Source: a virus (lineage: Duplodnaviria; Heunggongvirae; Uroviricota; Caudoviricetes). From it: 34,819 nucleotides of DNA. Below are positions 650 to 30,404 of the stretch, in pieces. Within the stretch, counting starts at the first letter, position 1. Every line of letters begins with the position of its first letter. The stretch lies in IMG/VR virus record IMGVR_UViG_2693429713_000015, one strand, 5' to 3'. A model generated the notes under the pieces. That model did no database searches. It was not told where the DNA came from and was given only the letters and a program-made list of their open reading frames with translations. The position numbers were made by a program, and so were the translations under genes.

Positions 650-1286
<637 letters not shown>

Positions 1287-1287
1287 T

Positions 1288-1344
<57 letters not shown>

Positions 1345-1373
1345 CAGAACTCGCGCCAGCCTGATTGCAGATA

Positions 1374-1763
1374 TTACTCTTTTTTCTCCGTATCTGCATC
1401 GGGTTCATCAGCAAATAGCTTGCCCTGCATCCGATCCAGTTCTTCTTTTCTTACCCGCTTAACCACGCTGTAGACCCACTGAAGCGAAACACCAAATTTG
1501 CGGGCCAGTTCGTGGTGGTTGCGTCCGTTAAACTCCCTGAAGATTTCCCGGTCGCGCTGACTGACCTTCCATACCATGCCCATCGGGAAATAAACGTTTT
1601 GCCCGCCCCAGACCTGCATCATTCGGTTCGCGACGGCCTGACCAATCTGGTCGGCAACTTCGGGCTCAATATCAATAATCTCGCGAACGGTCTCAGAGGT
1701 ATGCTGTGCCAGTTCCACCAGGAGTTCCGGCCCCTTACTTCGAAACTGATTCAGGTCGCTCAT
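1374..1763 (-). CDS. Mor/C-family transcriptional activator (middle/late gene activator)
   Basis: 129 aa; GGQNVYFPMG...REIFREFNGRNHHELARKFGVSLQWVYSVVKRVRKEE matches the Mor/C activator pattern; last gene of the leftward operon, as mor is in Mu. Confidence 0.75.
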   Translation of the reverse strand: MSDLNQFRSKGPELLVELAQHTSETVREIIDIEPEVADQIGQAVANRMMQVWGGQNVYFPMGMVWKVSQRDREIFREFNGRNHHELARKFGVSLQWVYSVVKRVRKEELDRMQGKLFADEPDADTEKKE

Positions 1764-2392: not shown

Positions 2393-2612
2393 TCTGAATA
2401 CCTCCCCATTCGATATGAATATTACGGGCAGCAATGACAGGGTCGTTATTCCACCATGCACCTGACATGTATTTTTCAACCTGTTCGCGTCCGGCAATAA
2501 CACCAATTGTGATCCCCGGCCTGACGTTCTTAAAAAAGGCGCGGGCAAAAAGGTATCTGGCAGATATTCGGCAGGCTTTTAATTTCCGGCTTTTACCTGA
2601 TAGCGTAATCAT
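2382..2612 (-). CDS. Hypothetical protein (76 aa)
   Basis: ATG at 2612-2610 overlaps the upstream gene's stop (ATGA arrangement); fills the gap in a tightly coupled gene chain. Confidence 0.35.
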   Translation of the reverse strand: MITLSGKSRKLKACRISARYLFARAFFKNVRPGITIGVIAGREQVEKYMSGAWWNNDPVIAARNIHIEWGGIQNDY

Positions 2613-3292
2613 CTGGCCTCCAGTTTCTGTTGTTCCTGCCCACTGACCGGGCGGTGCAGTCTGACGTTCTGCCCTTCACGAAACCCCGCATAGCGCGAGG
2701 CGTCGCCATTGCGGCTTCTTCCCGGTTTACGCGCCCTGGTGGTTTGCGTCTGCGGGTATTTATGTTCCAGCCACTGCTGCATCAGTTCACGCTCATCATC
2801 GGTCAGGGCAAAGGACTGTATTTCACTGATAACGGCCAGCACCCAGCCTTCGGCAAACTGGTCTCCACGGCTGGTGCGGGTGGCGGTTTTTATTCTTTTG
2901 TTCTGTGCACTGATATACTGCTGACGCGCCTTTTTCAGCTGACGGGCCAGCACTTCCCAGGTGTATGCAGCCAGTGCCGCACGTTCCCGGTTGCCGTAGA
3001 ACCCCACAGACGGATGCGTGCCGGGGTGAATGATGGAGTTAACACCAAATACCTCGCGGATGATGTTCATCAGGCCCAGCATGTAGCGCGGTGGACGGAG
3101 ACTGCCTGTCGGCCAGTAGTGACTGATGGTTTCATCAATATCACTCATAGCAATGTCGGAATGTGTGATGCCGTGAACATCCATCAGTTTACGGGCTCGG
3201 CACAGTGCCAGAGCGGCCTCGTGCGGGTTGCCGGATGCGGCCAGCGCCAGCAACTTTTTCAGTTTCTCAATGTGTTTATTCTGGTCTGTCAT
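2609..3292 (-). CDS. DUF2786-like early protein
   Basis: Likely start is ATG at 3292 (MTDQNKHIEKLKKLLALAASGNPHEAALALCRARKLM...), overlapping the upstream stop by ATGA; N-terminal helix pair resembles the DUF2786 signature (from memory). Confidence 0.5.
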   Translation of the reverse strand: MTDQNKHIEKLKKLLALAASGNPHEAALALCRARKLMDVHGITHSDIAMSDIDETISHYWPTGSLRPPRYMLGLMNIIREVFGVNSIIHPGTHPSVGFYGNRERAALAAYTWEVLARQLKKARQQYISAQNKRIKTATRTSRGDQFAEGWVLAVISEIQSFALTDDERELMQQWLEHKYPQTQTTRARKPGRSRNGDASRYAGFREGQNVRLHRPVSGQEQQKLEAR

Positions 3293-3504
3293 TGTTCTGT
3301 ATCTCCGGTATTTTTCTGCCGTTTCCATGCCCGGACAGCGTCGGACAGCTCTTTCAGGCTGTATGCTGCTTTAAGCTTTTCCCATAACCACTGTGTTGTT
3401 ATGTGCATCAGCAGGGCAGCCAGGGCTGCCCCCGCACTGAGGCATGTCGCCAGGCCAGTAAGAATCAGTATCCATGCGGTGATTTCCCTGAGTATGTCAG
3501 CCAT
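3289..3504 (-). CDS. Small membrane protein (71 aa), hypothetical
   Basis: Single strong hydrophobic segment ITAWILILTGLATCLSAGAALAALLM. Confidence 0.45.
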   Translation of the reverse strand: MADILREITAWILILTGLATCLSAGAALAALLMHITTQWLWEKLKAAYSLKELSDAVRAWKRQKNTGDTEQ

Positions 3505-3518
3505 TGAATGCCTCCCGG

Positions 3519-3815
3519 TTACTCGTTCGTGTAAATCACGCCCAGTCGTGCAGCCAGACGTTCCAGTTTTTTCTGTTTGTGGAAGTCAATCAGCCGGTCC
3601 ATCCCCTGAAGGCGCAATTGCTCTGTCATGATTTCCACGTCTGCCAGCTCTGCCGCGAGGTCGCTTTCGCTGCCCTGTCCGTTCAGATTGCGGGCAGCAC
3701 TGGCCGCCAGTTCAGCGGCCTCTTCTGTCAGTTTCAGGGCCTGTGCGTCCGGCCCGAAACGCTGCAGGGCCAGACGGTAGAGGGCGGTGCGGGTGAGTAT
3801 GGTGTTCCGTGTCAT
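3519..3815 (-). CDS. MazG-like nucleotide pyrophosphohydrolase-fold protein (98 aa), tentative
   Basis: Contains KLTEEAAELAASA ... DLAAELADVEIMTEQL ... KQKKLERLAARLG, matching the EExxE / ExxD / KxxR arrangement of small MazG domains; eye-match only. Confidence 0.45.
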   Translation of the reverse strand: MTRNTILTRTALYRLALQRFGPDAQALKLTEEAAELAASAARNLNGQGSESDLAAELADVEIMTEQLRLQGMDRLIDFHKQKKLERLAARLGVIYTNE

Positions 3816-3824
3816 GCCGCGCCC

Positions 3825-4097
3825 TCAGTGCTTCCGGCTGACGGTGATGTGCAGGCCGCCTTCTGCAGTGGTTTCCATCCGGTACGGCACCTCATGCGCT
3901 GCCGTGTGGGTTAGTGTGTTCACCAGTACCTGCAGGGCAGCCGCCTTTCCGTTGGTCGCCACAATGGCCTGAGCGGTCATGCTGATTAGCGCCGTCAGGA
4001 CGTGCTTCACATCGGTGAGGTCGCGGCATTCACACTCGTTGACATAGTGTTCAACAAGGGTTCGGGTGCGCTGTCGTGCTTCCTGTGGGGTAATCAT
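3825..4097 (-). CDS. Hypothetical early protein (90 aa)
   Basis: ORF in the operon, overlapping the upstream gene by 4 nt; no recognisable motif. Confidence 0.45.
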   Translation of the reverse strand: MITPQEARQRTRTLVEHYVNECECRDLTDVKHVLTALISMTAQAIVATNGKAAALQVLVNTLTHTAAHEVPYRMETTAEGGLHITVSRKH

Positions 4098-4288
4098 TGC
4101 GAGTCCTCCCTGTCAGGGCGGGAGAATTCCATGACGGGCACGTCTGCCGAAAAATGCTGGCTGCAGTACGGGCAGACCAGGGTGACGCGTACCGCAGGGA
4201 TGTGGTATTTACCGGACATCACGGCGATGGCGCTGTGAAAACGCAGGGCTGTTATATCCCTCTCGCACTGAATACATTTAAATATCAT
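4094..4288 (-). CDS. Small Cys4 zinc-ribbon-like protein (64 aa)
   Basis: CxxC...CxxC (CIQCERD ... CPYCSQHF); GAGGAG RBS 9 nt upstream of ATG at 4288. Confidence 0.5.
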   Translation of the reverse strand: MIFKCIQCERDITALRFHSAIAVMSGKYHIPAVRVTLVCPYCSQHFSADVPVMEFSRPDREDSQ

Positions 4289-4385
4289 GATTTAATTCTC
4301 CTCTGTTTCCGGCGTGCAGAAGCCCGCGGCGCTGACGCCGGAATAAAAAAGAAAATGTTTTTATTAAATAATTAACGTGGTGTGT

Positions 4386-4916
4386 TTACTGCACATCCTG
4401 CTCAAAAGGAATTATTGAAAAATCCTCAATGTCGCTTTTAATGGAAATACCGGGAATATTTTTCACGGCCTCTTTTTCATTCAGGATAGCGTCTTTATTT
4501 ATTTCCTCTTTTACACGAATAAAGCGCTCAAGCCCCAGACGTCTCAGCAGTTCAATGACATTATCCGCCCCGCGAATGCTGACTGACGGCGGACGGTTTC
4601 GCCACTGCACCTCGCCGGTGGTGAGGTTAGCGAACTTCACCTTCCCGTTGCCGGTCAGTTCATCACGGTGCGCCTCACACCATGTCTGGATACCGGACTG
4701 CAGTTCGGCCATGCGTTTTTTCAGGCTCTCGGTGAGCGGGGCATAACGTGCAGTGATGTCGCCAATGGTGTCATTCATTTCTGTTTCAGCCCTGACCAGT
4801 TCACGTTGCGCGTCACCAAGCAGTCTGATTCCCTCAATGACCTCTTCGCGTGTCCCCGGCACCCAGAGTGCTGCTGCGGCTTTGATACGTTTTGCCCCTT
4901 TTGTACTTTTTGCCAT
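4386..4916 (-). CDS. gam: Gam-like host-nuclease inhibitor
   Basis: 176 aa; collinear with Mu Gam as recalled (AKRIKAAAALWVP...RLGLERFIRVKEEINKDAILNEK...IEDFSIIPFEQ). Confidence 0.9.
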   Translation of the reverse strand: MAKSTKGAKRIKAAAALWVPGTREEVIEGIRLLGDAQRELVRAETEMNDTIGDITARYAPLTESLKKRMAELQSGIQTWCEAHRDELTGNGKVKFANLTTGEVQWRNRPPSVSIRGADNVIELLRRLGLERFIRVKEEINKDAILNEKEAVKNIPGISIKSDIEDFSIIPFEQDVQ

Positions 4917-4943
4917 ATTTTATGACTCCTCCTGTTGTGCTGA

Positions 4944-5213
4944 TTACCACAAAGATTCCGGCCACACGACGCGACAGCCGTGCAGTTCGAAAACGCCCTG
5001 ACGGAAATGTCCCCTGTGGTCATGACCGGTATACAGATAACAGGCCTTTCCCTGCTCAAGCATGCGCATGCAATGCGCACTCCGGGAAACGCGGATGACA
5101 GGTTTGTTACCCCTGATGGTGATGCTTTGTACATCCGTGTTCGTCGCCTTAAGCGCCATAATGGCTGACTGCACTTTGCTGATTTGCTGGTTGATACCTG
5201 TGGTGGATTTCAT
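4944..5213 (-). CDS. Hypothetical Cys/His-rich protein (89 aa) in the kil position between B and gam
   Basis: AAGGGG RBS; motif HCMRMLEQGKACYLYTGHDHRGH...HGC; function unknown. Confidence 0.45.
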   Translation of the reverse strand: MKSTTGINQQISKVQSAIMALKATNTDVQSITIRGNKPVIRVSRSAHCMRMLEQGKACYLYTGHDHRGHFRQGVFELHGCRVVWPESLW

Positions 5214-5215
5214 TA

Positions 5216-6382
5216 TTAAACCCCTTTGACAACGTCAGCGTTGACCTGTGGAACCCCGATTTCAGCGGCCAGATTCATGGCGGCTATTACCAGGTTACTG
5301 ACGGCCAGCGGATACAGCAGGCTGACCATATTTTTACGATGACTTCCCGGATTGCTCAGGCGGGCACGTATGGCATCCACTGCGCTGGCGTCCATAATGT
5401 CCGTCAGTTGTTTACCGGCCCGTTGCAGTTTGAACGTCAGAAACTCTTCAAGGTTATTGTCCAGAGGCAGAAGTTCGACCACCTCACAGCGCTGAACGAC
5501 TTCACGGACTTCCATATTGCGTTCAGACAGTTTTGTCGCCAGTTCCGGCTGGCCAATCAGCACGATGGACAGCAGTTTTTTGAAACCGGACTCCAGCTCA
5601 AAAAAGCGTTTGAGGTGTTTCAGTGTCGGAATGGGCAGACTGTGGGCCTCCTCAATCACCAGAACGTGGCTGAACCCCGCCTGGCTGCTGTCTTTCAGGA
5701 CGCGATGCAACTGGCGAAAGCGGGCGTCCTGACTGCGTCTGATGCTTTCCAGTGGTGCGATGGTACTGATAATGGCTTCGGCAATCGCTGCTGCCTTCAG
5801 GGTTTTCCCTTTCACATCGTTGTCTTCCATAGCGATGATGTATGGCTCGATAACAATTACCGGCGCATTCTCGCGGTTGATACGTTCAGTCAGGTCGCGG
5901 CGCAGCGTGGATTTACCCGCACCGGACTCACCGATGACGGCCATAAACCCACCATGACGGGCTGTCTGGTACAACGCCTCACGCACGTAGCGAATATCCG
6001 GGGTGGTGAACACATCATCAGAACCCTGCATGGCTTCGTCGGCGAACGGGTCACGGAAAAGACCAAACGCTTTTTTGGTTGCTGGAAATAACACCTGTTT
6101 TTTGAGTAACATATTCTCTTCCTCACTGAGGCTCGTTTTATCTGTGGTACCCGCTGTACGGGGCGTGGCCGCGCCCTGTACAGCATCAAAACTCTTCGTT
6201 GTATCAATCCCCTGACTTTCCAGCCAGGACGCAAGACGCCGGCGCACTTCTCCGGGGCTGGTGCGGGGCCACGCGTTATGATTCACAATCTGGGCCAGCG
6301 TGGCCTCAGAAACATCGACAGCTCTCGCCACCACCGCCTGTGGAATACGGGCCTCTTTCAGTTGCTGCTTCAGTACCAGCAT
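5216..6382 (-). CDS. DNA transposition ATPase B (MuB-like, AAA+)
   Basis: Walker A GESGAGKST; N-terminal HTH-like segment; immediately downstream of the transposase; preferred start is ATG at 6382 with GAGGAGGG RBS (the ORF track's longer form starts at a GTG). Confidence 0.85.
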   Translation of the reverse strand: MLVLKQQLKEARIPQAVVARAVDVSEATLAQIVNHNAWPRTSPGEVRRRLASWLESQGIDTTKSFDAVQGAATPRTAGTTDKTSLSEEENMLLKKQVLFPATKKAFGLFRDPFADEAMQGSDDVFTTPDIRYVREALYQTARHGGFMAVIGESGAGKSTLRRDLTERINRENAPVIVIEPYIIAMEDNDVKGKTLKAAAIAEAIISTIAPLESIRRSQDARFRQLHRVLKDSSQAGFSHVLVIEEAHSLPIPTLKHLKRFFELESGFKKLLSIVLIGQPELATKLSERNMEVREVVQRCEVVELLPLDNNLEEFLTFKLQRAGKQLTDIMDASAVDAIRARLSNPGSHRKNMVSLLYPLAVSNLVIAAMNLAAEIGVPQVNADVVKGV

Positions 6383-6392
6383 GTTTCCCTCC

Positions 6393-8162
6393 TCAGTTGC
6401 CGTTAACAATGCTGATAACACTGCTGCGGGCCGGTGTGGTCAGCGTGGCCATGACTTCATCCAGTGCGGCTTCCGGTACGCCGTCCGGGTACTGTGCCGT
6501 TAACTGGCGGTAATGTTCCGGCGTCCAGGTAAGGCCGTCGGCGCTGAACTTATCGCGCAGGGCTTTCGCGGCCTCCACATGAGTCATGGGACGTTGTTCA
6601 GTGCGCGGCCCGCGTACGTCAGAGGCCTGACCACGCTTCGGCATATAGGCCGGAAGTGTGGTGTCGTCGATATGTTTATACGGGTCAAGCCGCCCGCCGA
6701 ACGGCAGCGCCTTCGCCTTGCGTGCGGCGGCTGCATCTGCGGCGTTGTCTGTACCGGTAACCAGCGCTTCGGTTTCTTTTGCCGCCATCTGTGCCGGGGT
6801 TTCCGGCAGGGCTTTGTAACTTTCGCCAAATACCGCCGCGCCTTCAGCAAAGCCAAACTCGTTCTTTCTGACCTCTTCGACCAGGAAGAACGTCTCGTGG
6901 CCGTCCTCACCGGTCAGAACCACCTGTGCCACATCGCTGCGCCATGGGTTACGGGTAATCATCAGTTTTTCACCAACCAGTACGCCCGGTACCGTTGATA
7001 CGTCAAATTCAGTGCCCCGGAACGAGACACGAAGTTTTGGCGTGACTTTGCGGAGTTCTGGTGCCGCCACAGCCAGTTCACGACATACCTCAACGGAAGG
7101 CGCTTTTTTCAGCTGCTCAGCAGTAATCTTCAGCCAGATATCCGTGCGGGTTTTACCGTGGCGGCTGTGAACAGCCGTGGCGTTAAAGTGGCTGCGCCAT
7201 TTCGCGGCCAGCGCGTTGAGTTCTTCCAGACTGTGAACCGGCCGGAACTTCAGACCCGGCTCCAGCTTGCGTTCGATAATGTCACGCGCCTTTTCCACCT
7301 GTCCGGTGGCGCGGGCGTTATGCGGCTTGTGCGCTATCAGGTCGATGCCCAGTGAGCGGCACATGTTTTTCGTCATACCCGCGGTGTTTGCCGAGCCGGG
7401 GTCGAGATAGAGTATTTTCGGCACGCCGTGCAGCACGTCTGCGCCGCCACGCTCCTGCATGGCGTTGATAAGCACAGAACACAGGTTCTCACCTGATTCC
7501 GCGCCCGTCACATACTCAACGTAAATCCAGCCGCTGGCATGGTCGGTAATCTCGTAACTCCACACGCGGTCACTGGCGATACGGGCAAGGTTAGCGGGCT
7601 TGTTCTTGTAGAACTTCGCGCTGTCCATCACCTGCAGCCCTTTATGTCCATTGCTCAGGTAGTAAAGCGTGCAGAGTGAGGCGTCAATCTGCCAGACATG
7701 ATTGGGATGCAGACTGGCCACTTCGGTATGTGGTGCAGGGGCATCCAGTTGTTCCGGGTGCAGGCCATAGTTACGCAGAGCACGGCTGATGGCATCTTCA
7801 GACAACGGGAAAAACTCACTGGTGGTTTCATCTGTTCTGCCTGCGGTGATAAAGCCGTTAGCCCGCAGGGTTTCCACTGCATCTGCGATGGAATAGAGAC
7901 GCTTACCGTTCTTGCGGGTGGCCTCACGCAGTGTGGCAGATATCAGCGCGGCTTCGTCGCGGGTCAGGGCGCTGCGCCCGGCATCGGCGCGTTTTTTGCG
8001 TTTATCAGTCACAGATACCTCCTTCAGCCTGCGCAGCAGAGTGGCGCGGGACATGCCAAGTTCAGCACAGGCAGCGTCGTATATTGCACCGCGTTTACCA
8101 TGCCCCGCGTCACGTGCCGCGCGGGCTGTTTCAACCAGTTTTTCAGTCAGTGCCGGGGTCAT
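6393..8162 (-). CDS. Mu-type DDE transposase A
   Basis: 589 aa; N-terminal HTH region followed by an integrase-core-like central domain; position between ner-like genes and B. Confidence 0.9.
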   Translation of the reverse strand: MTPALTEKLVETARAARDAGHGKRGAIYDAACAELGMSRATLLRRLKEVSVTDKRKKRADAGRSALTRDEAALISATLREATRKNGKRLYSIADAVETLRANGFITAGRTDETTSEFFPLSEDAISRALRNYGLHPEQLDAPAPHTEVASLHPNHVWQIDASLCTLYYLSNGHKGLQVMDSAKFYKNKPANLARIASDRVWSYEITDHASGWIYVEYVTGAESGENLCSVLINAMQERGGADVLHGVPKILYLDPGSANTAGMTKNMCRSLGIDLIAHKPHNARATGQVEKARDIIERKLEPGLKFRPVHSLEELNALAAKWRSHFNATAVHSRHGKTRTDIWLKITAEQLKKAPSVEVCRELAVAAPELRKVTPKLRVSFRGTEFDVSTVPGVLVGEKLMITRNPWRSDVAQVVLTGEDGHETFFLVEEVRKNEFGFAEGAAVFGESYKALPETPAQMAAKETEALVTGTDNAADAAAARKAKALPFGGRLDPYKHIDDTTLPAYMPKRGQASDVRGPRTEQRPMTHVEAAKALRDKFSADGLTWTPEHYRQLTAQYPDGVPEAALDEVMATLTTPARSSVISIVNGN

Positions 8163-8177
8163 AGCTTGTCTTCCCTG

Positions 8178-8495
8178 TTATCCGATTCTGGCGGCAATTT
8201 TTCTGGCGAGGTCGCACAGTGTTTCGCCATCGCAGGTTTTCACCACGGTATTTACCGGTTGCGGTGCAACTACCGGGCGTAATGCTGACTGATTCTGCAG
8301 ACGTCTTATCTGCTGCATCAGCATCACCTCCATCGTCAGTACAAACGGGTGCGTCTCCTGTGCGGGTACGCAGATTTCACCGGAAGGGGTCACCACGCGG
8401 AAACCCTGCACCATCTCCGGCAGCAGATTACACAGTGCGTGCCCCAGTGCCTCCGGGCTGTCCATCAGGGTATTTTGTGTGTTATTCGTATTCAT
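8178..8495 (-). CDS. Hypothetical early protein (105 aa)
   Basis: ORF within the early operon; no recognised motif. Confidence 0.45.
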   Translation of the reverse strand: MNTNNTQNTLMDSPEALGHALCNLLPEMVQGFRVVTPSGEICVPAQETHPFVLTMEVMLMQQIRRLQNQSALRPVVAPQPVNTVVKTCDGETLCDLARKIAARIG

Positions 8496-9415
8496 TACTG
8501 CATATCCTCCGGTCGGTTGATTTCAGGTTCCGGTTCGGTCAGCCAGGCGGGGGCATCGTTACCCGATGGAGCGGCCTCAAGGTCAAACGTCTCACGTAAT
8601 GCATGAACACTGCGTTCAATCTGGCAGACCAGACCGGCCATGAAATCTCTGGGGGTATCGATCATGTTTTTGGTGCAGTATTCACACAGGGTCTCAAAAA
8701 CACTGGACAGCCGGACGGCGATAGCCGATTCGGCCTCAACCGCTAATGCCGTCACTTCCGCCCGCAATTTTTTCAGTTCTTCGTCTGGCGGCGGAGGTTG
8801 CAGGCGCGATTTCTTCTCCAGTTTTGTGGCCAGTTCGTTGATTTTTTCGTCCTTTCCGGCAAGCACCTGTTGCTGAGCTGCGTTGGTTTCGCGCGCTTCA
8901 CGCAGGGCGGCCTTCAGTTCGCGGCTGGTCATGCGATCAATATCATCAAGCGTTGCACCGGCGACGGTTCCACCATCAGCTAATGCGTCGAGTTCTTCGT
9001 CATCCAGAACCATCAGTTCATATAACTTGGTTTTTCCCAAAACGCTCAGCGCTGAGCGTTTTGGCTGTTCATCTCCATTGCCGAGAAATTTCACGCTGGC
9101 CTGCATCATGCGACGAGCTACCTGTGGTGCTAATCCGAGGTCGTTTTCCAGAATATTTGTGAAATCACCATGCGGTTCATTTTCTTTTAAGATGATCAGC
9201 CGCTTACCCGCTTCCAACATAGATTCAGCACTCTGCGCCATATAAAAACGTGCTTCGTGAACGATGCGTTCACGTTCATAAGGCAGTCCATCACCAAACT
9301 GCTGCATGATCTCCATGCGATGCTGTGTCATGGCATTCAGGCTGACGTTGAGATCATCCGACAGCGGTACATCGGCGTTCAGTTCAGTGTTAATCGGTGA
9401 TTTGGTACGTCCCAT
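8495..9415 (-). CDS. Hypothetical coiled-coil early protein (306 aa)
   Basis: Long ORF with an acidic/coiled-coil central region (ELKAALREARETNAAQQQVLAGKDEKINELATKLEKK); function unknown. Confidence 0.5.
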   Translation of the reverse strand: MGRTKSPINTELNADVPLSDDLNVSLNAMTQHRMEIMQQFGDGLPYERERIVHEARFYMAQSAESMLEAGKRLIILKENEPHGDFTNILENDLGLAPQVARRMMQASVKFLGNGDEQPKRSALSVLGKTKLYELMVLDDEELDALADGGTVAGATLDDIDRMTSRELKAALREARETNAAQQQVLAGKDEKINELATKLEKKSRLQPPPPDEELKKLRAEVTALAVEAESAIAVRLSSVFETLCEYCTKNMIDTPRDFMAGLVCQIERSVHALRETFDLEAAPSGNDAPAWLTEPEPEINRPEDMQ

Positions 9416-9425: not shown

Positions 9426-9740
9426 TTACAAACGACTACCTGAAATGACACGTTGGTTAATTTCGTTAATACGATCCTGTGCACGTGCCATCTCGTTACT
9501 GTGGGCCATGGCGATCTGCAGTAACTGGATGCCCGGTGCAAAACGTCCGTTCTCCAGTTTCAGAGCCAGCCCTTCTTCAATGAGGGTGTTGAGTGCCCGG
9601 TTGATGTTTGCCGGTGACTCGTGCAGTGCTGTCGCCAGTTCACCGTTAGAAATACCGTTCAGGGCATGACCGCGCAGCGCTTTGAGTACCCGGAGGATGC
9701 GACTGCCGGAGCTTGAAACATTCGTCTTACTCATCTGCAT
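9426..9740 (-). CDS. Winged-helix DNA-binding protein (104 aa), hypothetical
   Basis: N-terminal ILRVLKAL...GISNGELATAL...INRALNTLIEEGL resembles a winged-helix HTH. Confidence 0.45.
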   Translation of the reverse strand: MQMSKTNVSSSGSRILRVLKALRGHALNGISNGELATALHESPANINRALNTLIEEGLALKLENGRFAPGIQLLQIAMAHSNEMARAQDRINEINQRVISGSRL

Positions 9741-9786
9741 ACCTCTTTTGCGATATGTGATAACCTTTTACAAAGACTCAAAATAT

Positions 9787-9975
9787 TTAGGCCGCCTGAG
9801 CTGTTGATTTCAGTCCCAACTTCACGGCGATTTCATGGGATTTACCGTAACGGGCTTTGGTCTGCCCGTTGAGAACGCGGTATACCTCATTGCGGTTGTA
9901 GCCGTTTTCTTCTGCCCAGCGGGTGAAAGTGATCCCGCGCTGGCGGAAGAGAGCTTTGACTTGTTCTGCAGTCAT
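9787..9975 (-). CDS. Ner-like small DNA-binding protein (first early gene)
   Basis: 62 aa; AAGGAG RBS 6 nt before ATG at 9975; layout parallels Mu Ner; divergent from the repressor. Confidence 0.6.
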   Translation of the reverse strand: MTAEQVKALFRQRGITFTRWAEENGYNRNEVYRVLNGQTKARYGKSHEIAVKLGLKSTAQAA

Positions 9976-10022
9976 CGTTGTCTCCTTTGTTGATGCAATG
10001 ATGTTTGCCTTATATGTGTTAG

Positions 10023-10051
10023 ATTATTGCTCATAATTATGAGCATATCAA
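10023..10051 (-). promoter_or_regulatory. Putative early promoter Pe (minus strand)
   Basis: On the minus strand: -35 TTGATA (plus 10046-10051), 17-bp spacer, -10 AATAAT (plus 10023-10028), about 45 bp upstream of the Ner-like start. Confidence 0.5.
10029..10044. promoter_or_regulatory. Perfect 16-bp palindromic operator GCTCATAATTATGAGC
   Basis: Self-complementary 16-mer fills the spacer of the putative Pe; an extra half-site TTATGAGC recurs at 10067-10074 across the repressor start codon. Confidence 0.6.
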
Positions 10052-10068
10052 GATAGAGATTCACTTTT

Positions 10069-10425
10069 ATGAGCAAAGATATAGGAGAGCGCGTTATTTC
10101 TGTGAGGAAGAAAGCAGGGTTGAACCAGAGAGAATTTGCAGCTCGTTTAGGTATTTCTAATGGTGGTATCAGTCAGATTGAAAATGGAAAGGCGATGCCT
10201 GGAGGGGAGTTTCTGTTAAAGATGCATCAAGAGTTTAATGTTGATGTAAATTGGTTGCTCACTGGAATGAGCACAGATGGTATGACTAGAAACCAGAATC
10301 AAATTTCCCCAGAAAAACAAAAACTAATAGATACTTTTGACGACATGACACCAGACCAACAACGCTCATTTCTTGAGATTGGGCGATTCTATACTCAGCC
10401 AAAACCAGGAAAAATCGCAGGCTGA
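10069..10425 (+). CDS. XRE-family HTH repressor (c-repressor analogue)
   Basis: 118 aa; N-terminal HTH (LNQREFAARLGISNGGISQIENGK); divergent from the early operon; no peptidase domain. Confidence 0.8.
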   Translation: MSKDIGERVISVRKKAGLNQREFAARLGISNGGISQIENGKAMPGGEFLLKMHQEFNVDVNWLLTGMSTDGMTRNQNQISPEKQKLIDTFDDMTPDQQRSFLEIGRFYTQPKPGKIAG

Positions 10426-10510
10426 TACTGACCCGGACACAAAGGACAGGTGGTTGATCTGGATGCTTTCAGAAAACATCGCCAGTGACATAGTGGAAGT
10501 TGTTTGGTTT

Positions 10511-10543
10511 ACCGGAAAGCATTGTGCTTTCCGGTTTTGTTTC
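10511..10543 (+). terminator. Intrinsic terminator downstream of the repressor gene
   Basis: 10-bp stem accggaaagc / gctttccggt, loop attgt, followed by TTTGTTTC. Confidence 0.6.
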
Positions 10544-11306
10544 AGAAGTTGCAGATTAGCAGTTCACGGCGCGGCGTGGGTTTACCCGCCAGACTGTAGT
10601 TGATATTCACTGTCTGTATGTTCAGTCCAGTGAACACCTCGCGCATCTGCGGGATGTCGTTCACCGAAATTATCATTTTTCCTCTGATGCACCGGGCCAG
10701 CTCTGCCAGCCGCGAGTAGTTCCCTTCAGGAAAATCCACACCATAGCCTTCCGTACCCAGGTACGGTGGGTCGCAGTAGAACAGCGTGTGCGGACGATCA
10801 TAACGCTCAATGCACTGTTGCCAGTCCATGTGTTCTATGACTGTTCTGGAAAGCCGCAGGTGTGCCGCTGACAGTTCTTCTTCAATACGTAGCAGGTTGA
10901 AGCGTGGCGGGGATGTGGTGGAGGTACCGAAGCTGTGCTCTGCCACCTTGCCGCCAAACGCCTGCTTCTGAAGGTAGTAGAACCGTGCCGCACGCTGGAT
11001 ATCCGTCAGTGTTTCTTCCGGGGTGATCTGCAGCCATTTGTAGATCTGACGGCTGACCAGCGCCCATTTGAACTGGCGGACAAATTCTTCCAGGTGATGC
11101 TTTACCACCCGGTACAGATTCACCAGTTCACCGTTGATATCATTGATGACTTCGATCTTGCCGGGTGTCTTAAGAAAATAGAGCGCTGCTGCCCCACAAA
11201 ACGGCTCCACATAACATTCATGCGCCGGAAACAGCGGCAGAATGTGTTTTGCAAGGCGGCGTTTGCCACCAATCCACGGCACGATGGGTAATGTCTGCAT
11301 TTTCAT
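10542..11306 (-). CDS. Dam-family (D12 class) N6-adenine DNA methyltransferase
   Basis: DPPY catalytic motif; N-terminal VPWIGGKRRL AdoMet-binding-like motif; likely start is ATG at 11306 (MKMQTLP...) rather than the ORF-track start at 11396. Confidence 0.8.
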   Translation of the reverse strand: MKMQTLPIVPWIGGKRRLAKHILPLFPAHECYVEPFCGAAALYFLKTPGKIEVINDINGELVNLYRVVKHHLEEFVRQFKWALVSRQIYKWLQITPEETLTDIQRAARFYYLQKQAFGGKVAEHSFGTSTTSPPRFNLLRIEEELSAAHLRLSRTVIEHMDWQQCIERYDRPHTLFYCDPPYLGTEGYGVDFPEGNYSRLAELARCIRGKMIISVNDIPQMREVFTGLNIQTVNINYSLAGKPTPRRELLICNF

Positions 11307-11410
11307 AATCTGCAAGCCTTTTACAATTATTAAAAAATATGGCAGTCTGGTCAGGTCTCGCGAGACTGACTGAACCTTGGTCGGCTCACAGCGCATTCCT
11401 GTGGGGCGAT

Positions 11411-11450
11411 GACCAGCCCGGCTTTCGGGTGCCGGGCTGGTCGTTCTTTC
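11411..11450 (+). terminator. Plus-strand terminator-like hairpin with no obvious plus-strand gene upstream
   Basis: Perfect 12-bp stem gaccagcccggc / gccgggctggtc, 8-nt loop, followed by GTTCTTTC; the minus-strand flank is not U-rich. Confidence 0.4.
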
Positions 11451-11496
11451 ATGATGCGGCAGGGATGGCGGGATTTCTGTTAATGTGGTTTAGGGA

Positions 11497-11712
11497 TTAT
11501 CCGGGGCGATTTTCTGACCTTATCCGGTCCAGGGCATAAGTAATACCTTCTGCAAAAACAGAAGTATCAAACTGCTTTTGTATTCCCTGAAAATGAAAAG
11601 CGGCACGACAGACACTCAGTTCTCCGCGGTATAACCGGATAATATCTTCCAGAACATTGTTCACTGCTTCAGCACGGCGCTGATGTTCTGTTAACGTTAA
11701 TCGGGGATTCAT
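11497..11712 (-). CDS. Hypothetical protein (71 aa)
   Basis: AAGGAG RBS 6 nt upstream of ATG at 11712; predicted helical, no recognised motif. Confidence 0.45.
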   Translation of the reverse strand: MNPRLTLTEHQRRAEAVNNVLEDIIRLYRGELSVCRAAFHFQGIQKQFDTSVFAEGITYALDRIRSENRPG

Positions 11713-11713
11713 G

Positions 11714-12115
11714 ATGCACTCCTTAAATGATGATTTTTATGTACTCACCGGCAAAATATTCTGCCGATTACTGAACACGCATCCGGCACCTCAGGTTTTG
11801 ATTTATTCTGGTTTTTTCGATATCCCGGACCAGGTTGATCACGACCAGAAAAAGTGCCGGTGTTTTATTGATACGCTGATATGGCTTCGGGATAACAGCT
11901 ATATTCGTTACTCTCAGTTGCTGGCTGTGGGAGCGGCTGATGTCGTCCTCACGGAAAAAACGCTCTGTCTGCTCAATGCCATGCCGACCTTTCTGCAGCC
12001 CCGGCCCGTACCATTTAAAGAGTCACTTCTGGATGCAGTAAAAACCGGTGAAAATGCAGTCATCGCTGAATGCGTATCCCGGATTATGCGTTACGTGTTT
12101 AATGAACGTAAGTGA
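11714..12115 (+). CDS. Hypothetical protein (about 133 aa), uncertain
   Basis: 405-nt ORF filling the gap between two minus-strand genes; weak GGGGA RBS; start is back-to-back with the 71-aa gene start and its 3' end overlaps the P-loop gene by 25 nt. Confidence 0.35.
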   Translation: MHSLNDDFYVLTGKIFCRLLNTHPAPQVLIYSGFFDIPDQVDHDQKKCRCFIDTLIWLRDNSYIRYSQLLAVGAADVVLTEKTLCLLNAMPTFLQPRPVPFKESLLDAVKTGENAVIAECVSRIMRYVFNERK

Positions 12116-12819
12116 GGTTTATCCGCTGTCTGCATAATCCCGATAGCCAGTGCGAGGGGAAGTAATTCCGGGGAAACTCTTTCAAACAGCGATGCCCATT
12201 CTCCTCTCGCCATCACTCTGTCCAGCCCGCCCTCCAGTTGCATTTCAGCAATCTTCCTGATTTCCCGGAACAACGCCGCTTTGATCTCTTCATGCTCAGC
12301 TTTATTTTCCGGTGTCAGAAGGTATTCGTCGAAGAACCGGGGAGGCTGGTTAATCGGGATGTGTTCCTGTTTGCCGTACTTCGGGGACGAACAACATTCT
12401 GTTGACTGACCAGTGAGTTTACGTAACTCCTTCATGAGCAGCTCCTGATCGTAAACTGTCATCAGTGCCGCAATGGTGGCATGCAGTGCATCGGGCAGTA
12501 TCCAGGGTTGCCGGCCCGTGGGGCATATAACATCCAGCAGCTCATTCGTCCGACAGATACGCTCCTCGCCGTATGACAACAGGCCCTGTCCCGTGTATTC
12601 CTCCAGCCTGATCACTGTGCCAGCCCGTGGTTTCTGCCATGTGCTCAGATCATCCCCACTCATACGGCGCTCACCGTCCACGTCTGCGGCGTCGACAATG
12701 ACGCTGTTTCCGAATTCCTGTTTCACCACTTCCTCTATTCGCGCCAGTACGTAACTTTTACCGCTGCCCACAGGACCGGACACGGTGACAGTGATGACCG
12801 GATTCAGTGTCTGCGTCAT
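12091..12819 (-). CDS. P-loop NTPase of unknown function (242 aa)
   Basis: Walker A GPVGSGKS at residues 15-22; possible Walker B VIVDAADVDG; GAGGAG RBS 8 nt upstream of ATG at 12819; C-terminal about 150 aa unrecognised. Confidence 0.6.
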   Translation of the reverse strand: MTQTLNPVITVTVSGPVGSGKSYVLARIEEVVKQEFGNSVIVDAADVDGERRMSGDDLSTWQKPRAGTVIRLEEYTGQGLLSYGEERICRTNELLDVICPTGRQPWILPDALHATIAALMTVYDQELLMKELRKLTGQSTECCSSPKYGKQEHIPINQPPRFFDEYLLTPENKAEHEEIKAALFREIRKIAEMQLEGGLDRVMARGEWASLFERVSPELLPLALAIGIMQTADKPHLRSLNT

Positions 12820-12949
12820 ATCGTATTCTCCTCTGTGAATAATTCATCGTTTATCCTGCACATCCCGTATCCCCGGCTCTCTTAACGCGCTTTAAAATCC
12901 TTCGCGCCCTGTATTTGTGATGCTGTCTCCACCAGATAAGGAGACACAC

Positions 12950-13300
12950 ATGAAAAAACTGAAAAAATTCATTCCCCCTGTTAAAAAACCTCGCCTCAGC
13001 GGCTGGCTGCTGACCTCAGTGCTGTTGCTGGGCACCATCGCTCTGGTCTCACCACAGCAGCTGCCTGTTGTGATCTACAAGCTGGCACTCATCACGCTGG
13101 CAGCAGTGCTGGGTTACTGGCTTGACCGTTCGCTCTTCCCCAAAGCCCGTCCCGGTCAGTACCTGAAACATGACGACAGGCTGATGGCTGAAGGGCGTTT
13201 CCCGGTACAGACCGGCCTTCACCTGGTGTTTTCTGCTGCGTTAATCCGCCGTGCACTGATTGTTGCAGCGGTCTGCCTGGCTGTTGCGATGGGGCTTTAA
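12950..13300 (+). CDS. Putative holin (three predicted TM segments)
   Basis: ATG at 12950 with AAGGAG RBS; three hydrophobic segments; immediately upstream of the endolysin. Confidence 0.55.
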   Translation: MKKLKKFIPPVKKPRLSGWLLTSVLLLGTIALVSPQQLPVVIYKLALITLAAVLGYWLDRSLFPKARPGQYLKHDDRLMAEGRFPVQTGLHLVFSAALIRRALIVAAVCLAVAMGL

Positions 13301-29520: not shown

Positions 29521-30404
29521 TGTTTGCCGTACTGGGTGATATTGAGTTTGAGCTGATTACCTACTGGGACGGCTTCGAGGCCACGTTCGGCGTCGATTAT
29601 GCGGAGCATGCCCGCATCGGGGGTAAGCCTGGCCTGCAGTTCGTCGGCGACAGGCTGGACGAAATCCAGATAACTCTGGTTTTCCATCAGCATTATTGTG
29701 TACCCGATGTGGAGCTGGCGAGACTGCGAACAGCCATGAAAGCCCATCAGGCACTGGCGCTGGTCTTCGGCAACGGTGACTATCGCGGCTGGTTCGTGAT
29801 TACCGATGTGACTGCAACCAGCGAGCAGACTGACAGTACCGGCAACGTGCTGGCTGTCAGTGCCACCGTGTCTCTCCGGGAATACACCGGTGACCCGAAA
29901 AATCCTCTGCAACCACCGGCAATACGCACGAAGCTCCCGGGTGTCGGGGCGGTCTCCGGTGCCATACCTTCACCTTCAGGGGTGGCGCAGTTCATCCGCA
30001 ACGGCGTCAACTATGCGAAACAGGCGCAGTCTGTACTCCAGACCACTATCAGCGCCGTTCGGGTGACACAGAAAATGAAGGATAACCCCGTTGTCGCACT
30101 GACCCGTGTGCCGGGGCTGATGAGCGGACTGGGTAATATCTCCGGGGCTCTGGGGAAAAGTGTTCCGGCGTTTAACGCACTCTCTGAATCCATGCCCGAT
30201 GCCATCAGTCTGGCCAGAACAGCCAGCGAAGCAGCCACGTATGTACAGCAGGCACAGTCTGCGCTGAGTGGTGTGGACAAAAGAAATATTGCAGGTGCTC
30301 TGGATACCGTTTCCGGGCAGCTTAACGCCGCCGGCACAGCATTCAACCGCATGTCTCCGGAATTAAGTGCAATGGCCGCCAGAATACTGACGAGGAGTGT
30401 GTGA
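29520..30404 (+). CDS. P2 gpU-like tail protein with a long Ala/Ser/Gly-rich C-terminal extension
   Basis: N-terminal about 130 aa (MFAVLGDIEFELITYWDGF...GWFVITDV) resembles the GpU family; about 160 aa of low-complexity extension follows. Confidence 0.6.
   Translation: MFAVLGDIEFELITYWDGFEATFGVDYAEHARIGGKPGLQFVGDRLDEIQITLVFHQHYCVPDVELARLRTAMKAHQALALVFGNGDYRGWFVITDVTATSEQTDSTGNVLAVSATVSLREYTGDPKNPLQPPAIRTKLPGVGAVSGAIPSPSGVAQFIRNGVNYAKQAQSVLQTTISAVRVTQKMKDNPVVALTRVPGLMSGLGNISGALGKSVPAFNALSESMPDAISLARTASEAATYVQQAQSALSGVDKRNIAGALDTVSGQLNAAGTAFNRMSPELSAMAARILTRSV

What the first reader, a model, noticed from the sequence alone, without database searches (positions are those of the whole stretch)
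10542..11306. Phage-borne orphan Dam-family methyltransferase convergent with the repressor gene
A D12-class adenine methyltransferase (DPPY motif) is carried without any adjacent restriction endonuclease. Phage orphan methyltransferases commonly protect against host restriction or act in epigenetic regulation. No GATC cluster was seen in the nearby promoter regions I read.
Basis: partly seen in the sequence, partly recalled or inferred. Interest (0 to 1): 0.4.

Follow-up and report, generated by a model that had tools for sequence, protein, structure and literature searches.

The report
Silent prophage methyltransferase with antisense RNA
The gene is a real but already catalogued prophage DNA methyltransferase of unknown target sequence, and it travels with a conserved, unannotated small RNA gene on the opposite strand that may keep it switched off in the lysogen.

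Summary
Window 10542-11306 (minus strand) encodes a 254-aa D12-class, alpha-order DNA methyltransferase with intact motifs and no nearby restriction enzyme. It lies convergent with the HTH repressor gene.

It is already known. The protein is identical to one in E. coli JJ1886, and a published study equates a JJ1886 protein with M.EcoMIV of the ST131 prophage Phi2. That study assigned it no methylation motif in the lysogen and measured low transcription. The host element is a BcepMu-like transposable prophage found in 635 of 5426 complete E. coli genomes.

GATC specificity is not established. The residues Dam uses to read GATC are not conserved, and the family profile matches the N4-cytosine enzyme M.CbeI almost as well as DpnM.

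The new result is a conserved structured element immediately upstream (window about 11349-11452). It occurs in 80 of 85 homologous loci, also precedes com-methyltransferase operons, and has no Rfam match. G-U versus A-C counts, folding energies, a U-rich tail and a conserved TAnnnT hexamer all place it on the opposite strand. It looks like a roughly 100-nt terminated small RNA whose promoter overlaps the methyltransferase ribosome-binding site. A silencing role is my inference, not a demonstrated function.

The parts
10542..11306 (-). Methyltransferase CDS, 254 aa. It is D12-class with alpha motif order and is identical to JJ1886 WP_000783854.1, which the literature equates with M.EcoMIV.
10761..10772 (-). 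Catalytic motif IV (DPPY, residues 179-182).
   Evidence: Read from the sequence. These are invariant columns D179 P180 P181 Y182.
11184..11207 (-). Motif I, the SAM-binding segment (EPFCGAAA, residues 34-41).
   Evidence: E34, F36 and G38 are invariant or nearly invariant. The segment aligns to the Dam and DpnM FxGxG motif.
10899..10958 (-). Putative target-recognition hairpin (residues 117-136, FGGKVAEHSFGTSTTSPPRF). The positions equivalent to Dam R124, L122 and P134 are not conserved.
11372..11450 (-). Covariance-model hit for the conserved element core. The model was built on the methyltransferase strand; the functional RNA is inferred to lie on the plus strand.
   Evidence: 70.6 bits, E 6.5e-17. 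It is the only hit in the window.
11411..11455 (+). P1' hairpin: a 12-bp GC-rich stem at 11411-11442 followed by the U-rich tail GUUCUUUCAU. I read this as the intrinsic terminator of the plus-strand RNA.
   Evidence: Covariation is shown.
11380..11410 (+). P2' hairpin. On the plus-strand orientation it extends with G-U pairs, to 12 bp with 4 G-U in relatives.
11349..11371 (+). P3' hairpin containing the perfect 12-bp palindrome GTCTCGCGAGAC (11355-11366). Its sequence varies between relatives but it always forms a hairpin.
11320..11348 (+). Candidate sigma-70 promoter of the plus-strand RNA: -35 TTTACA (11320-11325), a 17-nt spacer, and -10 CAGTCT (11343-11348). The inferred start site is near 11355. 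An alternative candidate is CTGCAA 11310-11315 with AAAAAT 11333-11338.
   Evidence: In the promoter-P3 segment the only invariant columns (A123 and T127 of the window row) map to A2 and T6 of this hexamer. A TAnnnT hexamer sits at the same place in relatives, including the com-type loci.
11317..11320 (-). Shine-Dalgarno AAGG of the methyltransferase, 10 nt upstream of the ATG. It is overlapped by the -35 of the opposite-strand promoter.
   Evidence: Read from the sequence; conserved as AAGGCTT.
10511..10535 (+). Terminator-like hairpin with a T-run, lying between the convergent repressor and methyltransferase genes.
10069..10425 (+). HTH_3/CI-like repressor gene, convergent with the methyltransferase. 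It is not annotated in GenBank PQ738613.

Best explanation
Shown: window 10542-11306 (minus) encodes a SAM-dependent, alpha-class D12 DNA methyltransferase. It is carried as cargo in the variable slot between the repressor and the lysis cassette of a BcepMu-like transposable prophage. It has no partner nuclease. Its protein is identical to a JJ1886 protein, and the literature equates a JJ1886 protein with M.EcoMIV.

From published work: it is barely transcribed in the lysogen and adds no detectable motif there.

Shown: its recognition sequence cannot be read off from Dam, because the Dam-type GATC-contact residues are not conserved.

Shown: the gene forms a mobile module with a conserved structured element immediately upstream.

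Inferred, with several independent lines of support: the element is a roughly 100-nt small RNA made from the opposite strand (window about 11355 to 11452, plus). It has three hairpins, the last being an intrinsic terminator. Its promoter lies within the methyltransferase 5' leader, and the -35 overlaps the ribosome-binding site.

Inferred, untested: any methyltransferase transcript must come from upstream and cross this RNA gene head-on. The RNA and its promoter would then hold the methyltransferase off in the lysogen through antisense pairing with the leader and transcriptional interference. Strong late or read-through transcription during lytic growth would overcome this block, so that progeny DNA is methylated before packaging and protected from restriction in the next host.
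For: Identity and prevalence:
- Pfam, NCBIfam, PHROG and PADLOC all assign a methyltransferase.
- The region is 100% identical to Escherichia phage PhiKM, classified as Bcepmuvirus.
- It is found in 635 of 5426 complete E. coli genomes.
- The protein is identical to the JJ1886 one, and the literature equates a JJ1886 protein with M.EcoMIV.

Silence in lysogens.

Cargo status: phage BcepMu itself and an E. coli variant prophage lack the gene at the same slot.

Late-gene association:
- In phiE125, KS9, VP882 and TJ1 the homologue sits at the end of the lysis or tail operons, in the same direction.
- 18 of 85 relatives carry a Mu-type com gene (PF10122) directly upstream.

The element is real and linked to the gene:
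- P1 and P2 show 149 cells changed on both sides, against 51.7 in shuffles and 18-38 in slid controls.
- The covariance model R1 hits 80 of 85 loci. These include 18 com-type loci that were not used for training.
- It gives no hit in prophages lacking the methyltransferase (L003, L010, L011).
- A methyltransferase-independent pattern scan of viral contigs returned 120 loci. 73 have this D12 methyltransferase family immediately downstream (I did not run R1 on these 73). Among the other 47, 9 are R1 hits, including loci with com plus an unrelated N6_N4 methyltransferase.

Strand assignment:
- On the methyltransferase strand there are 21 G-U against 68 A-C pairs. The opposite strand folds more stably in 38 of 42 sequences.
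- On the same alignment, alifold gives -35.07 against -19.75 kcal/mol, with 93 against 10 G-U cells.
- P1' is followed by a U-rich tail.
- A conserved TAnnnT hexamer with a -35-like box lies ahead of P3'.
Against: - No expression data for the RNA were available. The promoter, start site and terminator are sequence inferences, and two candidate -10 elements exist in the window.
- The window's -10 (CAGTCT) is weak.
- P3 shows only a mild strand preference (28 against 13) and could instead act in the sense leader.
- The inferred RNA does not overlap the methyltransferase SD or ATG. Antisense action therefore requires a long sense leader, which has not been shown.
- A sigma-70-like site for the methyltransferase itself exists at 11354-11326, although it is not conserved in KP12.
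- The low transcription reported in lysogens could simply reflect the lack of a late activator.
- The methyltransferase specificity, and therefore the anti-restriction benefit, is unknown.
Confidence: 0.6

Rival explanations
1. The enzyme is a plain GATC-specific phage Dam. It supplements host Dam during rapid lytic replication, either avoiding MutH or SeqA problems or protecting against MboI/DpnII-type enzymes. The upstream element would then be incidental.
For: - The TIGR00571 dam-subfamily cutoff is passed.
- The best solved relative is the GATC enzyme DpnM.
- Databases annotate relatives as 'methyl-directed repair DNA adenine methylase'.
- In two relatives (L051, L072) the gene sits behind a cluster of GATC sites resembling the Mu mom promoter.
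Against: - Three alignment methods agree that the Dam R124 equivalent is not a conserved Arg. They also agree that K9, L122 and P134 are replaced.
- The Dam equivalog model fails, 67 against 441 bits.
- The family profile matches the N4-cytosine enzyme M.CbeI (7M6B) at E 1.3e-36, close to DpnM at 2.3e-38.
- Two methylome papers list the target as undetermined, while giving GATC for other phage Dam types.
- GATC depletion is the same in prophage variants with and without the gene, 0.53 against 0.55.
Confidence: 0.3
2. The upstream element acts on the methyltransferase strand as a cis-regulatory 5' leader. It would be riboswitch-like or protein-binding, analogous to the Com target and translation-inhibition structure of Mu mom, and would gate access to the ribosome-binding site.
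For: - The element is always on the same side and at a fixed distance from the first gene of the operon, 32-102 nt.
- Sense-strand folds repeatedly pair AGCC or AAGCCU with the GGCU of the SD.
- P1 and P2 covary in either orientation.
Against: - G-U against A-C asymmetry of 21 to 68, and antisense more stable in 38 of 42 sequences.
- Alifold energy of -35 against -20 kcal/mol.
- The apparently single-stranded conserved flanks of P2 become a 12-bp G-U-containing helix only on the other strand.
- In com-type loci the element lies upstream of com rather than between com and the methyltransferase.
Confidence: 0.15
3. The element is not an RNA gene. It is DNA-level or boundary punctuation: a bidirectional terminator (P1) that closes the upstream operon, plus palindromic protein-binding sites (P2, P3) for a phage regulator of the methyltransferase promoter.
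For: - P1 follows the last late gene in phiE125, KS9 and VP882.
- P3 apices are often perfect palindromes, loop included.
- Symmetric operator half-sites can mimic covariation.
Against: - The P1 and P3 stem sequences are too variable for a shared binding protein across unrelated phage types.
- G-U asymmetry is an RNA property.
- The conserved A2/T6 hexamer implies a promoter firing away from the methyltransferase.
- The P1 loop consensus (GYNNNARC) is conserved.
Confidence: 0.15
4. The methyltransferase is one component of a multigene defence or toxin system together with its neighbours: the 242-aa P-loop protein and the 134-aa and 71-aa ORFs.
For: The slot between repressor and lysis genes is a variable cargo site. 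The 242-aa ORF has an N-terminal P-loop.
Against: - The neighbours have no PADLOC, Pfam or NCBIfam defence or nuclease match.
- They sit in mixed orientations.
- They are absent or different next to the methyltransferase in KP12 and in other phage types.
- In JJ1886 an IS66 element sits beside the 242-aa ORF homologue, which PGAP annotates shorter there, 636 nt against 729 nt.
Confidence: 0.05

Closest known systems
M.EcoMIV (EC958_1101, prophage Phi2 of E. coli ST131; Forde et al. 2015, PMC4659465)
   Same: The window protein is 100% identical to the JJ1886 protein. The paper states that M.EcoMIV is 100% identical to a JJ1886 protein. It describes the same D12 domain and orphan status in a prophage.
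   Different: No difference at the protein level. The paper did not describe the upstream RNA element and did not determine a recognition site. I could not verify the mapping of the old JJ1886 locus tag (P423_04965) onto the current one.
GATC-specific alpha-class D12 enzymes: E. coli Dam (2G1P), DpnM (2DPM), T4 Dam (1YFL)
   Same: They share the Pfam family and the motif order (motif I, then the recognition hairpin, then DPPY). The aromatic residue at the hairpin start (F117 against Y119) is kept. Profile E-values are 2e-38 to 6e-11.
   Different: - The Dam base-contact residues K9, L122, R124 and P134 are replaced.
- The hairpin is about 3 residues shorter in the profile alignment.
- It is followed by a family-specific TSTTSPPRF segment.
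- The Dam equivalog model is failed.
M.CbeI (7M6B), alpha-class N4-cytosine methyltransferase of Caldicellulosiruptor bescii
   Same: It is the second-best solved relative of the family profile (E 1.3e-36). It aligns full-length and includes DPPY. Its identity comes from PMC8616854.
   Different: It modifies cytosine N4. This shows that D12 membership plus DPPY fixes neither the target base nor the sequence.
Phage Mu com-mom DNA-modification operon
   Same: Both are late-expressed DNA-modification genes of a transposable phage under extra post-transcriptional control. 18 of 85 homologous loci carry a bona fide Com (PF10122) directly upstream. Two relatives have a mom-like GATC-cluster promoter.
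   Different: - The window has no com gene.
- The enzyme is a methyltransferase, not Mom.
- The R1 element is absent from the Mu com-mom region; the best score there is 6.6 bits.
Homologues in temperate phages: phiE125 gp27, phi1026b gp26, KS9 gp25, VP882 'Dam'
   Same: They are 64-66% identical over the full length. phiE125, KS9 and VP882 were shown here to carry the same upstream element: R1 scores of 71, 74 and 54 bits.
   Different: Here the gene sits in the repressor-lysis cargo slot and points toward the repressor. In those phages it sits at the end of a late operon. Reports of their activity are known to me only from memory, and I could not retrieve them.
Antisense and small-RNA control of modification genes or phage functions (for example antisense RNAs of the EcoRI R-M system, P22 sar, lambda oop; named from memory)
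   Same: The architecture is a short, terminated RNA made opposite to a gene's 5' region.
   Different: The inferred RNA does not overlap the start codon. It is a conserved three-hairpin family spread across many phage types, with no Rfam 15 match. Rfam's 'D12-methyl' motif is recalled from memory only, and nothing in Rfam reached E of 1 here.

Membership tests
D12-class DNA methyltransferase (Pfam PF02086) | Full-length match above the curated cutoff | tested here: met
   102 bits against a cutoff of 22, covering profile positions 1-248 of 253.
D12-class DNA methyltransferase (Pfam PF02086) | Catalytic motif IV (D/N)PP(Y/F) and SAM-binding motif I in alpha order (I, then recognition domain, then IV) | tested here: met
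   FCGAA at residues 36-40 and DPPY at residues 179-182. These are invariant family columns.
Dam (GATC-specific orphan adenine methyltransferase) | NCBIfam dam subfamily model TIGR00571 | tested here: met
   116.6 bits against a cutoff of 114.85, a marginal pass.
Dam (GATC-specific orphan adenine methyltransferase) | E. coli Dam equivalog model NF008152 | tested here: not met
   67 bits against a cutoff of 441.
Dam (GATC-specific orphan adenine methyltransferase) | Conservation of the GATC-contact residues (EcoDam K9, L122, R124, P134; the residue roles are from my knowledge of the 2G1P literature) | tested here: not met
   - Pairwise HMMER alignment gives P10, K120, A122 and S132 at these positions.
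- The profile alignment to DpnM puts a variable residue opposite the Arg.
- MAFFT offers a semi-conserved K/R120 as a possible substitute.
Dam (GATC-specific orphan adenine methyltransferase) | Methylation of GATC | not testable with these tools
   Published lysogen methylomes cannot tell, because host Dam masks GATC and the gene is nearly silent.
Type II restriction-modification system | A cognate restriction endonuclease gene adjacent to the methyltransferase | tested here: not met
   No nuclease or defence domain was found in the flanking ORFs. The neighbours are not conserved across 85 loci.
Mu com-mom type translational control | A Com zinc-ribbon gene (PF10122) directly upstream of the modification gene | tested here: not met
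   There is no Com in the window. The only CxxC...CxxC small ORF (4163-4276, minus) does not match PF10122. The feature is met in 18 of 85 relatives.
Any curated RNA family (Rfam 15) | A covariance-model match at E of 1 or better | tested here: not met
   No hit in window 9700-13000. No hit at the element in 7 related loci.
Independently transcribed, intrinsically terminated bacterial small RNA | Conserved helices supported by covariation | tested here: met
   R1 hits reach E of 1e-21 and include untrained loci.
Independently transcribed, intrinsically terminated bacterial small RNA | Own promoter and a Rho-independent terminator on the inferred strand | tested here: inconclusive
   A conserved TAnnnT hexamer with a -35-like box is present, as is a GC-rich hairpin with a U-rich tail. 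This is sequence evidence only, and the -10 in the window is weak.
Independently transcribed, intrinsically terminated bacterial small RNA | A detectable discrete transcript | not testable with these tools
   No transcriptome data were accessible.
BcepMu-like transposable phage (Bcepmuvirus) | The gene set and order of BcepMu: Mor, GemA, Gam, ExeA-like, DDE transposase, DUF3102, divergent repressor, SLT lysis cassette, Mu-like head genes and P2-like tail genes | tested here: met
   100% identical to phage PhiKM, which is classified as Bcepmuvirus. The order is the same as in NC_005882.

The most novel reading that the evidence does not exclude
The structured element next to the methyltransferase is a previously undescribed family of phage small RNAs. 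It would be about 100 nt long, with three hairpins, its own promoter and an intrinsic terminator. It is conserved in temperate phages of beta- and gamma-proteobacteria. It is physically coupled to DNA-modification operons: com and/or a methyltransferase of either the D12 or the N6_N4 class. On this reading it acts as the switch that keeps DNA modification off in lysogens and permits it in lytic growth, and it might also have trans targets.
Probability: 0.4. Interest if true: 0.6.

Novelty: new variant of a known kind. Interest (0 to 1): 0.4.

Why it matters
The methyltransferase alone is ordinary. It is a named, widespread prophage orphan enzyme, and the only open question about it is its target sequence.

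What would matter is the coupled RNA. Silent prophage methyltransferases are a recurring puzzle in bacterial methylome studies, where genes are present, apparently intact, yet show no motif. A conserved RNA gene wired into the translation-initiation region of such genes would give a concrete, testable mechanism for that silence and for its release during induction. It would also add a widespread candidate family to the still short list of phage-encoded regulatory RNAs.

The prophage sits in about 12% of complete E. coli genomes, including ST131, so strains for the experiments are readily available.

Tried and rejected
1. The longer 284-aa start at 11396, as annotated in GenBank PhiKM. I rejected it because the frame is broken by an indel in KP12, PGAP uses 11306, and the stretch is the non-coding element.
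2. A small conserved peptide upstream (a 33-aa ORF). I rejected it because substitutions and indels are not codon-like.
3. The 12-bp palindrome GTCTCGCGAGAC as a repeated operator or Mor-binding site. It is unique in the window, and its sequence is not conserved in relatives.
4. A sense-strand riboswitch or Com-target reading. This was my first model. I demoted it after the strand tests.
5. My recollection that 7M6B was M.BceJIV was wrong. It is M.CbeI.
6. Searches for experimental specificity data came back empty. These covered phiE125 gp27, VP882 Dam, 'EcoMIV' and 'D12-methyl'. Woods 2002 and Sprenger 2024 are not held in the library.
7. Linking the GATC-free early region to the methyltransferase. 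I rejected this because the desert is also present in a variant prophage that lacks the gene.
8. PADLOC, Pfam and NCBIfam scans of the neighbouring ORFs for a nuclease or defence partner found nothing significant.
9. I did not run a structure prediction, because it could not settle the specificity.
Full report
**1. The observation**

The minus strand carries an ORF ending at 10542, and the ATG at 11306 gives a 254-aa protein.
- It matches Pfam PF02086 (D12-class N6-adenine DNA methyltransferase) almost end to end: E 6e-29, 102 bits against a cutoff of 22.
- DPPY is encoded at 10761-10772 and the FxGxG-type motif I at about 11184-11207. The order is alpha: motif I, then the recognition region, then motif IV.
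- In a 41-member family alignment, every invariant column (G13, K15, E34, G38, D56, R86, A106, E158, D170, D179, P180, P181, Y182) is present in the query. Nothing suggests an inactive protein.

The shorter start is the real one:
- PGAP nt in JJ1886.
- Homologues align from residues 1-7.
- A 1-nt indel breaks the 284-aa frame in Klebsiella KP12.

The gene is convergent with an HTH_3/CI-like repressor gene at 10069-10425, and a terminator-like hairpin lies between them at 10511-10535. The flanking ORFs have no significant nuclease or defence-system match. There is no GATC cluster in the nearby promoter gaps.

**2. Context and identity**

The window is a rotated copy of the whole genome of Escherichia phage PhiKM (PQ738613, Bcepmuvirus). 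The 3.5 kb around the gene is 100% identical to that record.

The gene order is that of the transposable phage BcepMu. Mor, GemA, Gam, the ExeA-like protein, the DDE transposase and DUF3102 run leftward. The repressor is divergent from them. The SLT lysis cassette, Mu-like head genes and P2-like tail genes run rightward.

The methyltransferase lies in the slot between the repressor and the holin. BcepMu itself has other genes in that slot, and an E. coli variant of the same prophage carries different cargo there. The gene is therefore accessory cargo.

The region occurs in 635 of 5426 complete E. coli genomes, and the exact protein is seen on at least 1000 contigs. It is identical to the JJ1886 protein. 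Forde et al. 2015 state that M.EcoMIV (EC958_1101, prophage Phi2) is 100% identical to a JJ1886 protein, and that no recognition site is known for any homologue above 65% identity. In that study the gene was transcribed significantly less than dam, and no SMRT motif could be assigned to it.

A probable orthologue in Photorhabdus luminescens TT01 is plu3449: D12 domains, 771 nt, prophage P80. Its target is also listed as '?', and its expression was below 0.001 of gyrB.

So the gene is already catalogued.

**3. What does it methylate?**

This cannot be decided here, but plain Dam specificity should not be assumed.
- The dam subfamily model is passed by only 2 bits, and the E. coli Dam equivalog model is failed by a wide margin.
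- In the pairwise HMMER alignment to E. coli Dam, K9, L122, R124 and P134 align with P10, K120, A122 and S132. Those four are the base-contact residues of the Dam-DNA complex, as I know it from the 2G1P literature.
- The family-profile alignment to DpnM also puts a variable position opposite the Arg. It replaces the F-N-V-P segment and makes the hairpin about three residues shorter.
- MAFFT instead aligns a semi-conserved K/R120 with that Arg, so a substitute contact is possible.
- The profile matches M.CbeI (7M6B) at E 1.3e-36, almost as well as DpnM at 2.3e-38. M.CbeI is an alpha-class N4-cytosine methyltransferase.

I put the probability of GATC at about 0.3.

**4. A conserved element upstream**

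The roughly 150 nt upstream of the start codon is better conserved between the window and KP12 than the coding region is.

I collected 80 genome loci encoding relatives at 62-87% identity, from Enterobacterales, Burkholderiales, Neisseriales, methylotrophs and others, and added five phage loci. Most share a recognisable pattern upstream of the gene.

In a 42-sequence alignment (A2), two helices covary strongly. P1 is a two-part 13-bp stem and P2 is built on CACAG/CTGTG. Together they show 149 cells changed on both sides, against 51.7 ± 5.0 in shuffles and 18-38 when the partner column is slid. 84.8% of cells pair, against 28-36% in the slid controls. A third hairpin, P3, varies in sequence but is present in essentially every locus.

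A covariance model of the 79-position core (R1) gave the following.
- It hits the window once, at 11372-11450: 70.6 bits, E 6.5e-17.
- It hits 80 of 85 methyltransferase loci, always on the gene's side and strand.
- In 62 loci the hit lies 32-102 nt from the ATG.
- In 18 loci a Mu-type com gene (PF10122) lies between the element and the methyltransferase, and the distance is 182-242 nt. These com-type loci were not in the training alignment, yet they score up to 64 bits.
- Prophages without the methyltransferase (BcepMu, the LC-1302 variant) give no hit. Nor does the Mu com-mom region.
- Rfam 15 has no match, either in the window or at the element in seven relatives.

As an independent test, I scanned viral contigs for the P2 hairpin pattern alone, which returned 120 loci.
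- 73 have this methyltransferase family immediately downstream. I did not run R1 on these 73.
- Of the other 47, only 9 are R1 hits.
- Among those 9, three are cut off by contig ends, two have com followed by a non-homologous N6_N4 (PF01555) methyltransferase, and one has com alone.

The element is therefore tied to DNA-modification operons rather than to one protein family.

**5. Which strand?**

I first read the element as a 5' leader of the methyltransferase mRNA. The strand tests contradict that reading.
- On the methyltransferase strand the modelled pairs contain 21 G-U/U-G but 68 A-C/C-A. On the opposite strand those A-C pairs become G-U.
- The opposite strand folds more stably in 38 of 42 sequences, by 8.6 kcal/mol on average.
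- On one and the same alignment, RNAalifold gives -35.07 kcal/mol with 94.4% canonical pairs and 93 G-U cells for the opposite strand. It gives -19.75 kcal/mol and 10 G-U cells for the methyltransferase strand.
- On the opposite strand, the conserved flanks of P2 that look single-stranded become part of a 12-bp helix containing four G-U pairs. P1 becomes a GC-rich hairpin followed by a U-rich tract, which is the form of an intrinsic terminator.
- In the promoter-P3 segment the only invariant columns map to positions 2 and 6 of a hexamer on the opposite strand, just before P3'. The hexamer reads TAGGCT, TAGAAT or CAGTCT depending on the locus. A -35-like box lies 16-18 nt upstream. The com-type loci show TAnnnT at the same place.

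In the window this gives:
- -35 TTTACA (11320-11325), a 17-nt spacer, -10 CAGTCT (11343-11348), and a start near 11355;
- hairpins P3' (11349-11371), P2' (11380-11410) and P1' (11411-11442);
- the tail GUUCUUUCAU;
- a fold of -54.7 kcal/mol, z = -4.5.

The -35 overlaps the methyltransferase Shine-Dalgarno sequence (AAGG, 11317-11320). An alternative promoter candidate, CTGCAA/AAAAAT, lies about 10 nt upstream.

**6. Mechanism**

*Shown:*
- an intact orphan D12 methyltransferase carried as prophage cargo;
- a conserved, covarying structured element linked to it and to com-methyltransferase operons;
- sequence signatures that place the RNA on the opposite strand.

*From published work:* the gene is nearly silent in lysogens.

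*Inferred:*
- The element is a small RNA of about 100 nt, transcribed away from the methyltransferase.
- There is almost no room for a methyltransferase promoter between the RNA's start site and the ATG. The one sigma-70-like site present (11354-11326) is not conserved in KP12. Productive methyltransferase transcripts should therefore come from upstream and cross the RNA gene head-on.
- This arrangement predicts repression by transcriptional interference and by RNA-RNA pairing with the leader. Strong late or read-through transcription would relieve it.
- That fits the position of homologues at the ends of the lysis or tail operons in phiE125, KS9, VP882 and TJ1. It also fits the Com regulators seen in other relatives.
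- The likely benefit is methylation of progeny DNA before packaging.

None of the regulatory steps has been tested. The RNA could instead have trans targets.

**7. Rivals**

- A GATC-specific phage Dam (0.3). This concerns specificity only and is compatible with the regulatory model.
- A sense-strand leader (0.15).
- DNA-level punctuation, meaning a terminator plus operator sites (0.15).
- A multigene defence system with the neighbouring ORFs (0.05).

The evidence for and against each is given in the Rival explanations section.

**8. Verdict**

The finding as written is correct but ordinary and already known. Its functional interpretation is only partly supported. The added value is the conserved opposite-strand RNA element, which appears to be undescribed.

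Noticed in passing
window 2512-8659: A 6149-bp stretch with no GATC at all covers most of the early operon, from the DUF3102 gene through the transposase, ExeA-like and Gam genes to the small ORFs beyond. The Markov expectation is 18.4 sites, so the chance of zero is about 1e-8. Window-wide, GATC is at 0.53 of expectation. The desert recurs in an E. coli variant prophage lacking the methyltransferase (6089 bp) and in Klebsiella KP12_2 (3949 bp). BcepMu, whose host I recall lacks Dam, has GATC at 1.02 of expectation and no gap above 737 bp. This looks like host-Dam-linked counter-selection concentrated on the transposition genes. The cause is unexplained.
   Followed up: partly
whole window; PQ738613.1: The window is a circular permutation of the PhiKM record; window position x corresponds to record position x+19366. 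It is 145 nt longer, which I attribute (not checked) to the sequencing gap annotated in the tape-measure gene of that record. Both window ends fall inside the tail-fibre gene. The Mu-type genome ends should lie near window 880-1374, between the tail-fibre gene and Mor.
   Followed up: no
window 10069-10425 (+); PQ738613.1 29435-29791: The HTH repressor gene is not annotated in the GenBank phage record. That record instead lists a 41-aa minus-strand ORF (29732-29857) and uses the over-long 284-aa methyltransferase start.
   Followed up: yes
window 10028-10045, 10256-10273, 10067-10083: A perfect 18-bp palindrome, TGCTCATAATTATGAGCA, lies in the divergent early promoter gap. Related half-copies lie at the start of and inside the repressor gene. 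These are likely repressor operators.
   Followed up: no
window 11477-11491 (-) and 12879-12893 (-): Two copies of the motif AAA(C/G)NNNRTTAAYAG. One lies just upstream of the RNA terminator. The other lies in the divergent gap between the 242-aa ORF and the holin gene. In Photorhabdus, Xenorhabdus and Brenneria relatives a similar motif (TTTTAAAGGGCGTTAAGAG) lies just upstream of the element. It might be a binding site for a Mor-type activator or a promoter. At 2 mismatches, the number of matches in the window is not above chance.
   Followed up: partly
L051 (Yersinia pekkanenii) and L072 (Candidatus Pantoea bathycoeliae), upstream of the methyltransferase: These two relatives lack the R1 element. 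Instead they have three to four GATC sites within about 70 nt upstream, resembling the Dam/OxyR-controlled promoter of Mu mom.
   Followed up: no
window 11497-12819: Three cargo ORFs of unknown function lie between the methyltransferase module and the holin, in mixed orientation. They are 71 aa (phrog_4490), 134 aa (phrog_2266) and 242 aa with an N-terminal P-loop (phrog_3787). In JJ1886 an IS66-family element sits between the 242-aa ORF homologue and the holin, and PGAP annotates that ORF shorter there, 636 nt against 729 nt.
   Followed up: partly
window 4163-4276 (-): A 64-aa ORF with CxxC...CxxC cysteines lies in the early region next to gam. It is not a Com homologue, since it has no PF10122 match.
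   Followed up: yes
OM835952.1 (Klebsiella phage KP12 clone KP12_2): This record is labelled Vequintavirinae, but its gene content and order are those of a BcepMu-like transposable phage with the same methyltransferase module.
   Followed up: no
L005 2855-2934 (VP882 20859-20938): VP882 carries a copy of the element (54 bits). The literature describes a validated Hfq-binding VP882 sRNA, VpdS, of about 50 nt. I could not retrieve its map position, so whether the two coincide is unknown.
   Followed up: partly
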